This document shows, piece after piece, positions 36,001-64,000 of a stretch of 64,000 nucleotides of DNA. The stretch covers positions 620,001-684,000 of the forward strand of contig JAWMAR010000421.1 of the NCBI GenBank assembly GCA_036785375.1, written 5' to 3'. The position numbers are program-made. The stretch's first letter is position 1. The number at the start of each line of letters is the position of its first letter. This DNA comes from Leucoraja ocellata. Lineage: Eukaryota.

Positions 36001-39000
36001 GTGTTTTTTTTTTAAACCAGCATCTGCAGTTTCTTGCCACAACAAGGCGGTGGGGACTGTGGCAAGAGACTACAACGGCCCTCCCGCGGCGCCATCAGTG
36101 ACGCACCGGCACATCGTGTCGGGGACACGAACCCTCCGTGTGAGGGCTGATGTCGGGCTGGACCAGCCTGCCAGGTGTTTCCGTCTCTTCATTTTAAATT
36201 ACCCGAGGAGGGCTCAGACAGGAGTGGCTGGGACCGAGGAGAAGATCGGTGCGGTGGTAAGCGGGGAGTTGCAGCCTCGCCCAGCGGACAGGAATGAAGT
36301 CAGCGGATGGAGCCGCCCCGAGCCCGGGGGAACGGAGAATCCTGCGCTTCATCAGCACCGCCCCTCCCACTTCACAGCCCCTCCCTCAGCACCGCTCCCT
36401 GGCATTTCACTGCTTGCAAGGCGTCTGTTCGCTGTGAAAATGTGGGATTCGTGCAAACGTGAGAAAATAAGACAAACACGATCGAGCCTTGTACATACAC
36501 ACAGGCAGGAACGGTTGTACATGGGGTATAATATAGGGGACACCATGTATTGATACGCGGCAGGTGTTGAGATCTTCTGAAGTTGGACCTACTATAGAAA
36601 TCTAGATGAATGATTGATCTGTGCATCTGTTAGGGGCTGGAATAAGCATAAATACTGACAGAGGGGTGTGGACAGCACTGGCCTGTCCCACCCTGCAACG
36701 TCCCCATAACGCAACACCATGACCCTCCCCCCCCCCCCCCCACCCCCACACACACGTGTGGCTCCCTCAACTCTTTAGCAATAACAAAAGTGCCGGAGAA
36801 ATAGTGAACGTCGCCTATCCATTCCCTCCACAGATGCTGCCTGACCCGCTGTGTTCCTCCATAACTTTGTGTTTTGCACAGGATTCCAGCATCTGCAGTT
36901 CCTTGTGTCTCCCTCAGATCTTAGTCTGAAACGCATGTCGCCCACGAGGTTCCCTCCAAGCCTCGGGAAATAAGTGTCGGTAACATTGAGCACCCCTGCC
37001 CTCACGTTGTATACTTTCTTACAGTATAGTAGGAGACGAATCGGCCAATTGAGCTCGGGCCAACTCTCCGATCAATCCCACCCCAACTCCCCAGGACCGG
37101 CCTCTCTCACGTCCACAGTGCTGGGGTGAAGACAAGGGAGACAGATAATTCAATAGAATGTTATTCAATAGAATAAAAATCTTCGTTTATTTTTTAATTT
37201 ACACAATTTGTTAAATAGAATGTAATGAGTTAGATATATTTGATGCTTCCACACGATGGCCTGAGGGTTACAATTCGAGAGAGAAAGTTGTCATTTCCTG
37301 ATGAATTTTGAAATCTGTAGCGAGAGCAGTTGCAGAGTTCAGGGATGATTGGACAGAATGACTCAGCATTTGTCTGCTCACCTACGCGCTCAGGATTCGC
37401 ACACTCCTCACTTGGTGTAACCTTTCACCATCTGCAGTTCATCCACGGGTTTCCATTTCTGACTGACGGTCATGAACTGCCAGGAGAAAAAAACGGCAAG
37501 GCTTTAATCGTTCCGCGAAACAGGCGTCGTGGCACAGATGTACATAAACAATTGTACCGTCATCGGCAGCGAAACTGCACTGATCCAGTGTGAGAGCCAG
37601 TGGCCATTGGACCGGTCTCTGGACTGAGATGGAAGTCGGATGTTTGAAGGAGCGGGTGGGGGATTGAGGTCCCGCCTGTGTGATTCAAGTCTTCTATCAC
37701 AGGCTCAGGTCGTTCTCTGAACACTAGTGGTGGGTATTCGGCCAGTCAGAACGAACCCCTCCCCCCCCCCCCCCCCCCCCCACACACACACACAACAAAA
37801 TGCTCCCATTGTGTATGTGTCCTTTACCCCAACTTAACCGCCGACACGTTCCAGGTCATTCTGGTTAACAAACTGTTACACAGGCATTAGGCCGGGGGCC
37901 GGAGGACACATTTCCGACCAGTTGACTTTATTTCCTGAGACAGTGGAATGAAACAGGCTGGGCCACCACTGACTTCGAACGCCACATTTGGGTCCGTGAC
38001 CCACATTTGGAGCATTGCCCTATCCTCCTCTGGAACCCGGTGGACACAGTTCTGATGCAGGATCCCAACCCGAAACGCCGACCATGTATCTGTCTCCACA
38101 GATGCTGCCCGACCCGCTGAGTATTTCCAGCAGTTTTACTCTGCTCCAGTTTCCAGCATATGTATCTCGAGAAATTCCCCACGTAACTAGCGCGTCCACA
38201 GGAGCAACCCAAACCCAACACTAAATGCTGTTGGTGCTGCATTTCCTCGGCGCCTCCCCCCTCCCACAGTGCGCGGCTCCCTCACACCTGGGTCTGAAGC
38301 TCTCATCTCCCGCGAGGTTCCCTCCAAACCCCATCAGGCCTCCGAGAGCATTTGTCCGCCCACCCTCCCATATAGTGCTCATTCCACCCTCCCATCAATC
38401 CCACCCCCAAGGATTGGTCTCTTGCACAAAACCATCGGAGCCACCAGCTTCTCCCCCTCACCCACATTTGGGGAATTCACAGCCGATTAACCCACACCGT
38501 CGTTGGAGGAAAGCGAGCTCCTGGAGAGGAGGGGGTAACGCGGTGACACGGGAACATGCAAACTCCACGCAGACAGCATCGGAGGGCGGGATCGAACCCA
38601 TGCCACCAGCGCTGGGAAACAGCGGCCCTCCCGCGGCGCCATCACTGACGCACCGGCACAGCCCCGCCCCCCTGTTGTCCAGTGAACTCCCTTTTCTCTC
38701 GCCAACATCCTTTTCCATCCGCCATCGCCTCTCTTGCCGGTAAAAGCGAACTTCATCACCTCCTCGAGTCTCGCTCCACCCCCCTCCGCCCGTCCTCGCC
38801 ACTCCTTCGTTACTCCCTCTAATCTCCCTCCTCCCATCCCCGCCCCCCTCTCCCTCCTTTCCGCATCCTCCCATCCTCGTTCCTCCCTCTAATCCTCGCT
38901 CCCCCTCTCCATGCCCGTTCCACCCACCCTCCAACCCCGCTCCTCCCTCATCCCCTTAATCTGCCATATCCCTCCTTTGCCCCACCACCTCAATACTCCT

Positions 39001-63000: not shown

Positions 63001-64000
63001 ACTGTGTATTTGCACGTGACAATAAAAGCAGCATTGAACTCGCGTGGTGGTGTTCCACATGCCTTTTGTCCTCATCCTGCTTGGTGGCCCATGCTGCTGG
63101 TTTGAGGTGTGATTTAGGATACTCTAGGCAAGTAAATGCAGTACTGTGTGCAATTACAGCAGTTGTTCCAGCTTCTCCCTATCAAACAGATGAATACAAC
63201 TTGGCTTGACTTTAATACAATGTTATTTCTATTCATTTGTTTTGGGAAGTAAGCATCACTGGCAAAGCCCAAATTTAGTCTGTCTCCAACTACCCCCAAA
63301 GTGGTGGTGGTGAGTTACCCTTTTAAATCACTGCAGTCCATCTGGTCCAGCACCAACACAAAATACTGGACAGAAGGTTCCCGACCCGAAACACCATCTC
63401 TCCATATTCTCCAGGGATGCTGCCTGACCCACTGGGTTACTGCAGCATTTTTGTGTCTTTCCTTGGTAAACCAGTATGTGCAGTTCCTTGTTTCTACACA
63501 CTTCCAGTGCTGTTGGGAAATCCCAGAAGATAGGCCAGCAATGATAAAGGACAAAACATTTCCTATGCCTGTCTTTCCCCAATCGACATCCATGGTTCCT
63601 TTACCTCACCAGGTTTAAGTCCTGGAGCTCACTCACCAACAGCAGTGTGGGACACCCTCACCTGAAGGACTGCAATGGCTGAAGGCAGCTGTCCATCAAC
63701 CTCTGAATGCTGACTTGCTAATGATGCCCTCTTCCCAAAAGATAAATAAATGAACAAAATAATGACAGCTGAAGCAAAGACTGAGACACAGGGACACAGT
63801 GAACAACCTCTCCTGCGTTCTTTTATTCTAGGATTCTGACCCCATATTCTTTCCAAAGCCGCTTTACTATCTTATCAACCTCTTTCTAGAGTCTGTTTGA
63901 ATCAAATCTTTATTTTCCCAGTTCCAACAATCCATTTCAGGTTAATGTCGATGTTGAACCAATGTTTGACCAGATATGTTGCATTTTACTCTTTTGATTA

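What the first reader, a model, noticed from the sequence alone, without database searches (positions are those of the whole stretch)
36350..64000. Recent ~16-kb tandem duplication giving two intact C15orf48 (COXFA4L3/NMES1) genes
Seen: 36350-48010 repeats at 52640-64000 with only scattered SNPs and indels and no N-gap at the junction. Both C15orf48 copies have an intact promoter, four exons, splice sites and polyA signal, and encode the same 85-aa protein. Known: C15orf48 is normally single-copy here and in mammals replaces NDUFA4 in complex IV during inflammation. Inference: either a real dosage duplication/CNV or two haplotypes assembled end to end.
Basis: partly seen in the sequence, partly recalled or inferred. 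Interest (0 to 1): 0.72.

Follow-up and report, generated by a model that had tools for sequence, protein, structure and literature searches.

The report
Tandemly repeated skate C15orf48 locus
A skate-like genome assembly carries two head-to-tail, about 99% identical copies of a block holding the small mitochondrial gene C15orf48 and the back half of its neighbour AFG2B; this is either an ordinary young gene duplication or two parental versions of one locus assembled side by side, and the sequence alone cannot say which.

Summary
The repeat is real in the sequence. 36353-48010 matches 52643-64000 head to tail, with no N anywhere in the window. There are 124 substitutions in 11,286 aligned bases (1.1%) and 17 indels. 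Only 11.4-11.7 kb is seen twice, because the window end cuts copy 2. The 16.3-kb unit is inferred from the period.

Each copy holds a complete four-exon, 85-codon C15orf48/NMES1 gene on the minus strand. The two coding sequences show 0 differences in 258 nt, all splice sites are GT-AG, and both copies have polyA signals. Pfam B12D hits, a thorny-skate NMES1 reference and the SLC30A4/AFG2B neighbours support the identity. The source is a skate-like batoid, not human.

The copy between the two C15orf48 genes has no promoter and lacks the first ~398 codons.

Real duplication versus haplotype artefact stays open. The gapless junction favours a real duplication. Divergence is uneven (1.83% versus 0.55%) and lies within the 1.56% heterozygosity published for one skate, which favours the artefact. 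I put about 0.5 on real and 0.4 on artefact. No miR-147b-like element was found. Interest is low to moderate.

The parts
36353..52642 (.). Repeat unit 1 (full period, 16,290 bp). Only 36353-48010 has a visible partner.
   Evidence: Self-BLAST and MAFFT alignment.
52643..64000 (.). Repeat unit 2, the visible 11,358 bp, cut by the window end.
52595..52682 (+). 17-bp minisatellite (5 units) lying exactly on the junction. It is preceded directly by AFG2B intron sequence.
   Evidence: TRF, motif scan with 7 matches against 0.23 expected, sequence.
36356..36389 (+). The same 17-bp motif, 2 units, at the left edge of unit 1.
40331..40369 (-). C15orf48 copy 1, exon 1 (ATG, 13 codons, donor GT).
39697..39785 (-). 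C15orf48 copy 1, exon 2 (29 codons plus 2 nt; hydrophobic segment).
   Evidence: Pfam B12D E 8.6e-6, profile positions 6-34.
39192..39252 (-). C15orf48 copy 1, exon 3 (1 nt plus 20 codons).
   Evidence: Pfam B12D E 2.7e-5, profile positions 36-54.
37186..37476 (-). C15orf48 copy 1, exon 4: 22 codons, TGA at 37410-37408, 3'UTR with ATTAAA at 37198 and AATAAA at 37191.
56465..56503 (-). C15orf48 copy 2, exon 1.
55831..55919 (-). C15orf48 copy 2, exon 2.
   Evidence: Pfam B12D E 8.6e-6.
55494..55554 (-). C15orf48 copy 2, exon 3.
53483..53773 (-). C15orf48 copy 2, exon 4: TGA at 53707-53705, ATTAAA at 53495, AATAAA at 53488.
40451..40547 (-). Array of GC-box-like 20-21-bp repeats (4.7 units), 82-178 nt upstream of the copy 1 ATG. 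This is the putative core promoter.
   Evidence: TRF, sequence. The promoter role is inferred.
56585..56705 (-). The same GC-box array upstream of copy 2 (4.9-5.6 units by TRF, about one unit more than copy 1).
   Evidence: TRF, sequence, 19-bp indel.
43103..51477 (-). AFG2B/SPATA5L1 fragment in unit 1. It has seven coding exons matching residues about 399 to the end of an 809-aa ray reference, plus the stop codon. No exon for residues 1-398 lies upstream of it.
   Evidence: Named hits, tblastn exon map, Pfam AAA and AAA_lid_3, stop codon.
59073..62096 (-). Last three AFG2B coding exons in unit 2. The gene presumably continues to the right of the window.
   Evidence: The three exons differ from their unit 1 partners at 1 of 438 nt, a synonymous change.
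39318..39490 (.). 173-bp segment present only in copy 1 (intron 2 of C15orf48), flanked by a 6-bp GTGTAC repeat.
42709..42869 (.). 161-bp segment present only in copy 1 (between the AFG2B stop and the C15orf48 start).
18373..32966 (+). SLC30A4-like gene, the unduplicated left neighbour, convergent with C15orf48. Its last coding exon ends about 3.4 kb left of the breakpoint.
   Evidence: PDB hit to SLC30A4 chain 9jj3_B, E 5.9e-14. ZT_dimer scored 25.8 bits, just under the 26.7-bit cut-off. The first and last exons were placed by eye.

Best explanation
This is a genuine, evolutionarily young head-to-tail segmental duplication of about 16.3 kb at the SLC30A4 - C15orf48 - AFG2B locus of a skate-like batoid. 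One breakpoint lies 1.05 kb downstream of the C15orf48 stop codon, at a 17-bp C-rich minisatellite. The other lies in the AFG2B intron about 1.1 kb upstream of the exon for residues ~399-461. Read along the minus strand, the result is: AFG2B 5' exons (outside the window), full AFG2B 3' half, C15orf48 copy 2, junction, promoter-less AFG2B 3' half, C15orf48 copy 1, then the SLC30A4 3' end. Each C15orf48 copy keeps its four exons, its splice and polyA signals and at least 12 kb of native upstream sequence. Both should therefore be transcribed, doubling the dose of a protein that in mammals replaces NDUFA4 in cytochrome c oxidase during inflammation. The AFG2B piece between them is a dead fragment. 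What is shown: the repeat, the gene models, the identical coding sequences and the truncation of AFG2B in unit 1. What is inferred: that the assembly is right, that unit 2 runs on to about 68.6 kb, and that both copies are expressed and act as in mammals.
For: The repeat is colinear and same-strand, with no N in the 64 kb, so the junction lies inside one contig. In Ko et al. [quoted passage not shown] The junction reads as natural sequence: AFG2B intron runs straight into an in-register five-unit 17-bp array whose last units continue the two-unit array of copy 1. Both copies are complete genes with 0 of 258 coding differences, against 88 of 4,479 in the surrounding non-coding DNA (P about 0.006 if unconstrained). 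The copies differ by 17 indels, including segments of 173 and 161 bp. Gene identity rests on several results. Pfam B12D scores above cut-off for exons 2 and 3 separately. The 85-aa thorny-skate NMES1 reference is covered from residue 1 to 85 by four exon-sized matches in each copy. All 12 of 12 database relatives of that reference are named NMES1. The neighbours are SLC30A4 and AFG2B.
Against: No reads, depth or second assembly could be consulted. The overall divergence (1.10%, locally 0.55-1.86%) is what two alleles would show in a skate with the published heterozygosity of 1.56% (PMC10115646). That paper's pipeline (DBG2OLC, contig-level haplotig purging, PBJelly gap closing) is of the kind that can leave gapless false duplications, which Ko et al. 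call 'depth-gaps' from 'incorrect gap filling'. A simple one-step duplication predicts even divergence, but there is a sharp step at about 41072 (82 of 4,471 versus 37 of 6,778; 0 of 500 permutations reach it). That step needs an added assumption such as gene conversion. The right end of unit 2 is outside the window. Identical coding sequence is expected for alleles as much as for paralogues.
Confidence: 0.5

Rival explanations
1. This is a false 'heterotype' duplication. The animal has one C15orf48 and one AFG2B, and the two units are its maternal and paternal alleles. They were assembled as overlapping contig ends, laid one after the other and joined without a gap, for instance by gap filling or a join in the minisatellite.
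For: The copy divergence of 1.10% lies inside the 1.56% heterozygosity reported for the little skate (PMC10115646). Local swings between 0.55% and 1.83% are normal for allelic diversity and need no extra assumption. The left edge of copy 2 sits on a length-variable minisatellite (2 versus 5 units), a typical place for contigs to break. Ko et al. 2022 report that same-scaffold false duplications persist even in curated assemblies and are sometimes joined by unsupported filled sequence. In one search each of the 10 chondrichthyan species appears with NMES1 entries consistent with one gene (9 species have one cluster, Callorhinchus has three entries). Identical tandem copies would not show in that table.
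Against: There is no N between or near the copies, whereas most false pairs are separated by a gap. The join is blunt and in register: intron sequence abuts the first base of the array with no stray or chimeric bases. This would require a contig to start exactly at the array's first unit. The species and assembly method of the window are unknown, so the 1.56% figure may not apply.
Confidence: 0.4
2. This is a real duplication, but older or more complex than it looks. The right-hand 7 kb (the AFG2B 3' part and the intergenic DNA) has been homogenised by gene conversion. The array may hold more than two units, or the duplication may be present on only one haplotype as a copy-number variant.
For: There is a sharp step in divergence at about 41072, with LRT 41.7 and 0 of 500 permutations reaching it. 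It is not explained by CpG content, since non-CpG divergence is 1.57% versus 0.44%. The window ends inside unit 2, so further units cannot be excluded.
Against: No conversion tract edges or third copy can be seen. The same step is explained more simply by allelic heterogeneity. No outgroup sequence was available to polarise the changes.
Confidence: 0.15

Closest known systems
C15orf48 / NMES1 / COXFA4L3 / MISTRAV orthologues of cartilaginous fishes (for example thorny skate NMES1, P0121, 85 aa)
   Same: The length is the same (85 codons). The four-exon layout with the 3'UTR in exon 4 matches the human gene as described in PMC8654286. The B12D domain is present. Exon-wise matches give 76 of 89 identical residues to the thorny skate, 70 of 89 to Rhinoraja and 57 of 86 to Mobula. 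The position between SLC30A4 and AFG2B is the same; the human gene order is recalled, not taken from a call.
   Different: The gene is present twice in tandem here. No miR-147b-like sequence or hairpin was found in or near the 3'UTR. In bony vertebrates the miRNA is reported as near-invariant (PMC7793259, PMC8654286).
NDUFA4 (MISTR1) and NDUFA4L2 (MISTRH), the paralogous B12D-family complex IV subunits
   Same: They share the Pfam family PF06522 and the build of a single hydrophobic segment followed by a polar tail.
   Different: The database relatives of the closest reference are all named NMES1 (12 of 12), and the neighbours are those of C15orf48. A direct comparison with NDUFA4 or NDUFA4L2 sequences was not made. 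The paralogue duplications reported in zebrafish concern MISTR1 and MISTRH, not MISTRAV (PMC7793259).
False heterotype duplications in vertebrate assemblies (Ko et al. 2022, PMC9516828)
   Same: The two copies are adjacent, in the same orientation and near-identical, and they create an apparent gene gain. The divergence is in the range of one skate's heterozygosity.
   Different: There is no assembly gap between the copies. The other defining signs (half depth, discordant pairs, one-copy k-mers) could not be examined.
Ordinary tandem segmental duplications with one breakpoint inside a neighbouring gene
   Same: The arrangement is head to tail. One whole gene is doubled and the neighbouring gene is partly copied, leaving a truncated fragment. 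The junction lies at a short repeat.
   Different: Nothing is unusual apart from the uneven divergence along the unit.

Membership tests
B12D / NDUFA4 (MLRQ) family, Pfam PF06522 | Significant match to the family profile | tested here: met
   Exon 2 alone scores 25.5 bits (E 8.6e-6, profile positions 6-34). Exon 3 alone scores 23.9 bits (E 2.7e-5, positions 36-54). Both exceed the 21.5-bit cut-off, and exon 2 of copy 2 gives the same score. Exon 4 alone gave no hit, and exon 1 is too short to search.
B12D / NDUFA4 (MLRQ) family, Pfam PF06522 | Single transmembrane helix near the N-terminus | tested here: inconclusive
   The Kyte-Doolittle mean over 19-residue windows of the exon 2 peptide is 1.5-1.6. 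This is hydrophobic but at the usual threshold. No dedicated predictor was run and no fold was made, because the joined protein was not built.
C15orf48 / NMES1 orthologue (as opposed to NDUFA4 or NDUFA4L2) | Closest named relatives are NMES1 proteins | tested here: met
   The frame holding exon 4 retrieved thorny-skate NMES1 as its only candidate (1 of 1, E 2e-3). That reference aligns over residues 1-85 in four pieces to each copy. Its own relatives are named NMES1 in 12 of 12 cases. No head-to-head comparison with NDUFA4 paralogues was made.
C15orf48 / NMES1 orthologue (as opposed to NDUFA4 or NDUFA4L2) | Conserved neighbourhood: AFG2B/SPATA5L1 upstream on the same strand and SLC30A4 convergent downstream | tested here: met
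   AFG2B is supported by named hits at up to 91% and by exon mapping. SLC30A4 is supported by PDB chain 9jj3_B at E 5.9e-14, ahead of SLC30A3 at 5e-4. The human gene order used as the yardstick is recalled, not from a call.
C15orf48 / NMES1 orthologue (as opposed to NDUFA4 or NDUFA4L2) | Four exons with the 3'UTR in the fourth (PMC8654286) | tested here: met
Bifunctional C15orf48 gene (protein plus miR-147b in the 3'UTR) | miR-147b hairpin embedded in the 3'UTR | tested here: not met
   Rfam found 0 matches at gathering score in the window and none credible at E up to 10 in 36000-41000. A 14-nt core of the mature miRNA, recalled from memory, gave 0 matches with up to 2 mismatches in 64 kb. The two exact 8-mer matches do not exceed chance. 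The 3'UTR folds are no better than shuffles, with z of 0.04 and 0.54. The best 90-nt window downstream has z of -1.98. I did not check whether Rfam holds a mir-147 model.
True tandem segmental duplication | Two same-orientation copies joined by continuous sequence | tested here: met
True tandem segmental duplication | Diploid read depth on each copy and reads spanning the junction | not testable with these tools
   No reads and no eukaryotic genome collection were on hand.
True tandem segmental duplication | Outer end of the second unit returns to unique sequence | not testable with these tools
   Unit 2 runs off the window at 64000.
False heterotype duplication (Ko et al. 2022 criteria) | Assembly gap between the two copies | tested here: not met
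   There are 0 N in the window. A 'depth-gap' of unsupported filled sequence cannot be excluded.
False heterotype duplication (Ko et al. 2022 criteria) | Half read depth, discordant read pairs and haplotype-specific k-mers | not testable with these tools
   No read data were available.
False heterotype duplication (Ko et al. 2022 criteria) | Copy divergence matches the genome's heterozygosity | tested here: inconclusive
   The divergence here is 1.10%, against 1.56% reported for the little skate. The species of the window is not known.

The most novel reading that the evidence does not exclude
A real duplication, fixed in a skate lineage, of the inflammation-linked cytochrome c oxidase subunit gene C15orf48, in a vertebrate whose gene lacks the otherwise near-invariant embedded miR-147b. 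Dose would then be raised by copy number rather than tuned by the miRNA arm of the NDUFA4/C15orf48 switch. Both coding sequences would be kept identical by selection or gene conversion. A promoter-less AFG2B second-ATPase-domain fragment sits directly downstream of copy 2, where read-through could produce a chimeric transcript.
Probability: 0.2. Interest if true: 0.4.

Novelty: new member of a known kind. Interest (0 to 1): 0.27.

Why it matters
If real, this would be the first noted tandem duplicate of C15orf48. The MISTR paper calls this gene a host-defence gene under evolutionary conflict in primates (PMC7793259). The duplicate would give a natural dosage variant in an early-branching vertebrate that seems to lack the miR-147b half of the mammalian circuit. 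If false, it is a concrete example of a gapless haplotype duplication that creates a spurious gene gain and a spurious AFG2B fragment, and it should be flagged before gene-family counts are made from this assembly. In either case the biology is ordinary, and the value lies mainly in annotation hygiene. My literature searches for C15orf48 with 'cartilaginous' (1 paper, unrelated by title and abstract start), for C15orf48 names with 'tandem duplication' or 'skate' (none among the 15 listed) and for miR-147 with 'shark' (18 papers, none of the 10 listed relevant by title) found no prior report.

Tried and rejected
- **Single-exon searches of solved structures.** Exons 2, 3 and 4 gave 0, 0 and 1 chance hit. 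The exons are too short for phmmer.
- **Motif from the human protein.** A motif recalled from the human protein did not occur in the six-frame translation, because the skate residue differs.
- **miR-147b.** All tests were negative: Rfam, motif scans, folds and a hairpin scan of the 1.05 kb downstream of the stop.
- **tRNA or SINE signals.** None were found. In particular there was no 7SL/Alu-type match, which fits a non-human source.
- **CpG decay as the cause of uneven divergence.** Rejected, because the step persists at non-CpG sites (1.57% versus 0.44%).
- **The 173-bp and 161-bp copy-1-only segments as transposon insertions.** They have no other copy in the window. Only the first has a 6-bp flanking repeat, so deletions in copy 2 are as likely.
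- **BLOC1S6 to the left of SLC30A4.** This is a by-eye resemblance only. Pfam and PDB gave nothing.
- **ESM Atlas on the first SLC30A4 exon.** The best score was 0.82, which is a lead only.
- **Jobs not run.** No structure prediction, complex prediction or full-length search of the window's own C15orf48 protein was run, because that needs the joined exons.
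Full report
**Observation**

The window holds no N. Self-BLAST finds three colinear, same-strand matches:
- 36353-39323 = 52643-55625 at 97.16%
- 39491-42708 = 55620-58839 at 96.89%
- 42870-48010 = 58840-64000 at 99.07%

A MAFFT alignment gives 124 substitutions in 11,286 aligned columns (1.10%; 75 transitions, 49 transversions; K2P 0.011). One search lists 24 gaps. Of these, 17 lie inside the homologous block and the other 7 are noise in the unrelated flank left of 36353. The two largest are 173 bp (39318-39490) and 161 bp (42709-42869), both present only in copy 1.

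The period is 16,290 bp at the left edge. Copy 2 is cut by the window end, so 48011-52642 is seen once only. The '16-kb unit' is therefore an inference from the period.

**Source**

No 7SL/Alu-type or any other Rfam family reaches its threshold. The nearest named proteins are all from rays, skates and sharks. Exon by exon, the small gene is closest to thorny skate (76 of 89 aligned residues) and Rhinoraja (70 of 89), and further from Mobula (57 of 86) and sharks. I take the window for a skate-like batoid, not human. I did not try to name the record.

**The small gene**

It lies on the minus strand and has four coding exons.

| Exon | Copy 1 | Copy 2 |
|---|---|---|
| 1 | 40369-40331 | 56503-56465 |
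| 2 | 39785-39697 | 55919-55831 |
| 3 | 39252-39192 | 55554-55494 |
| 4 (with TGA) | 37476-37408 | 53773-53705 |

- The introns are in phase 0, 2 and 0, and every border is GT-AG.
- ATTAAA and AATAAA lie 212 and 219 nt from the first base of the stop codon.
- The exon lengths add up to 85 codons.
- The coding nucleotides of the two copies are identical, 0 of 258.

There is therefore no full-length search, fold or structure of the window's own protein.
- Exon 2 and exon 3 each hit Pfam B12D (PF06522) above the cut-off, at consecutive profile positions 6-34 and 36-54.
- The open frame holding exon 4 retrieved one candidate, the 85-aa 'normal mucosa of esophagus-specific gene 1 protein' of thorny skate.
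- That named reference aligns over residues 1-14, 13-43, 44-64 and 63-85 to four exon-sized pieces in each copy.
- Its own relatives are named NMES1 in 12 of 12 cases, from 10 chondrichthyan species.

**Neighbourhood**

- To the left, on the plus strand, is an SLC30A4-like gene. One exon hits the solved SLC30A4 chain 9jj3_B at E 5.9e-14, far ahead of SLC30A3 and ZnT8. The Pfam ZT_dimer score is just under its cut-off.
- To the right, on the minus strand, are exons of AFG2B/SPATA5L1 (named hits up to 91%).
- This is the arrangement I recall for human 15q21, which supports orthology with C15orf48 rather than NDUFA4 or NDUFA4L2.

tblastn with an 809-aa ray AFG2B reference maps seven coding exons.

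| Reference residues | Unit 1 | Unit 2 |
|---|---|---|
| 399-461 | 51477-51289 | not in window |
| 463-517 | 49141-48977 | not in window |
| 517-588 | 48781-48566 | not in window |
| 587-667 | 48312-48070 | not in window |
| 666-713 | 46113-45970 | 62096-61953 |
| 711-756 | 45107-44970 | 61090-60953 |
| last exon | 43261-43106 (+ TGA) | 59231-59076 |

Residues 1-398 match nothing in the window apart from weak cross-matches between the two ATPase domains. Upstream of the first mapped exon, only 1.1 kb of intron remains before the junction at 52643.

Unit 1 therefore carries a promoter-less AFG2B fragment that lacks its first half. The intact gene must be the one that begins to the right of the window and ends in unit 2. 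The three duplicated AFG2B exons differ at 1 of 438 nt, and the change is synonymous.

**Junction**

The homology starts exactly at a 17-bp C-rich minisatellite. There are two units at 36356-36389 and five at 52595-52679, which gives 7 matches in the window against 0.23 expected. At the junction, AFG2B intron sequence abuts the first unit directly and in register. The flanks to the left of the two arrays are unrelated.

**Divergence pattern**

The pattern is uneven. A change-point scan puts a step at about 41072, some 700 bp upstream of the ATG.
- To the left the rate is 82 of 4,471 (1.83%) and to the right 37 of 6,778 (0.55%).
- The likelihood-ratio statistic is 41.7, and 0 of 500 permutations reach it.
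- CpG decay does not explain it, since non-CpG divergence is 1.57% versus 0.44%.

By feature:

| Feature | Differences |
|---|---|
| Coding exons | 0 of 258 |
| Introns | 49 of 2,516 |
| 3'UTR | 2 of 237 |
| First 500 bp upstream | 13 of 500 |

Zero coding changes against the local non-coding rate has P of about 0.006. The coding sequence is therefore constrained in both copies. That holds for paralogues and alleles alike.

**Real or artefact**

For a real duplication:
- The junction lies inside gapless sequence.
- Ko et al. [quoted passage not shown]
- The junction reads as natural, in-register sequence.

For an artefact:
- The same paper notes that some false pairs are joined by unsupported, wrongly filled sequence.
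- The little skate genome paper reports 1.56% heterozygosity. Its pipeline used noisy long reads, contig-level haplotig purging and PBJelly gap closing (passages, section 'Genome assembly' read whole).
- A copy divergence of 1.1%, varying locally from 0.55% to 1.86%, is what two alleles would show in such an animal.
- The step in divergence needs no extra assumption under that reading.

I do not know the species or the assembly method of this window. I put about 0.5 on a real duplication, which may be heterozygous or partly homogenised by gene conversion, and about 0.4 on a haplotype artefact. If the duplication is real, and assuming about 1e-9 substitutions per site per year (my assumption, from no call), K of 0.011 would mean roughly five million years.

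**How it would work if real**

Each C15orf48 copy keeps its exons, its signals, a GC-box array 82-178 nt upstream of the ATG (4.7 units in copy 1 and 4.9-5.6 in copy 2) and at least 12 kb of native upstream DNA. Both should be expressed and should give the same protein, so the effect is on dose.

In mammals the protein exchanges with NDUFA4 in cytochrome c oxidase during macrophage activation (PMC8654286, abstract seen, passages). That it does so in a skate is inferred from orthology only.

**miR-147b**

Bony-vertebrate C15orf48 carries miR-147b in its 3'UTR. It is reported as identical between human and gar, and with at most two differences in coelacanth and six ray-finned fishes (PMC7793259 and PMC8654286, passages). 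Here I found none:
- Rfam gave nothing.
- A 14-nt core recalled from memory has 0 matches with up to 2 mismatches in 64 kb.
- The two exact 8-mer matches are at chance level.
- The 3'UTR and the 1.05 kb beyond it hold no hairpin better than shuffles.

A longer 3'UTR, a separate locus, or a gap in Rfam's coverage could still hide it.

**Comparison and novelty**

This is a known gene in its known place, doubled by a known kind of event or by a known kind of assembly error. The MISTR paper reports duplicates of NDUFA4 and NDUFA4L2 in zebrafish but not of C15orf48. My three literature searches found no report of C15orf48 in cartilaginous fishes or of a tandem duplicate (listings only). The supplements of those papers, which may list more species, were closed.

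**Unchecked**

- Read depth and junction-spanning reads.
- The sequence to the right of 64000.
- Other skate assemblies, since no eukaryotic genome collection was on hand.
- Expression of either copy.
- Any analysis that needs the joined protein.

Noticed in passing
window 36353-37407 and 52643-53704 (3'UTR and downstream of both C15orf48 copies); whole window for the motif: No miR-147b-like sequence or hairpin was found, although bony-vertebrate C15orf48 genes are reported to carry a near-invariant miR-147b in the 3'UTR. The 3'UTR begins with a 7-nt match to the miRNA's 5' end, but there is no hairpin around it.
   Followed up: partly
window ~41072 (copy 1 coordinates): There is a sharp step in copy-to-copy divergence: 1.83% to the left (the C15orf48 gene body and proximal upstream) and 0.55% to the right (intergenic DNA and the AFG2B 3' part). 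CpG content does not explain it.
   Followed up: yes
window 40395-40420 and 56529-56554, minus strand: A T-rich TTTC...TTTTCC element lies about 30-45 nt upstream of the ATG in both copies, just downstream of the GC-box array. By eye it recalls interferon-response-type elements. No test was made.
   Followed up: no
window 12308-14704 (-), 23835-24704 (+), 1761-2099 and 49852-50190: There are decayed LINE pieces: reverse transcriptase at 12308-12775 and 23835-24704, and endonuclease at 13796-14704. Two 339-bp LINE 3'-end copies are 97.6% identical, one of them inside an AFG2B intron next to a 36-nt C run (50309-50344).
   Followed up: partly
window 7580-8074 (-): An open frame has a stretch that by eye resembles BLOC1S6 (pallidin), the human neighbour of SLC30A4. 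Pfam and PDB searches gave no support.
   Followed up: partly
window 36072-36113 vs 38619-38660 and 54913-54954: A 42-bp stretch just left of the duplication boundary recurs at 95% identity inside intron 3 of both C15orf48 copies. Its meaning is unknown.
   Followed up: no
window 51950-52320 (+): A decayed LINE tail, similar to 19327-19969 on the other strand, lies in the AFG2B intron 270 bp to the left of the junction minisatellite. It could have played a part in the breakpoint.
   Followed up: no
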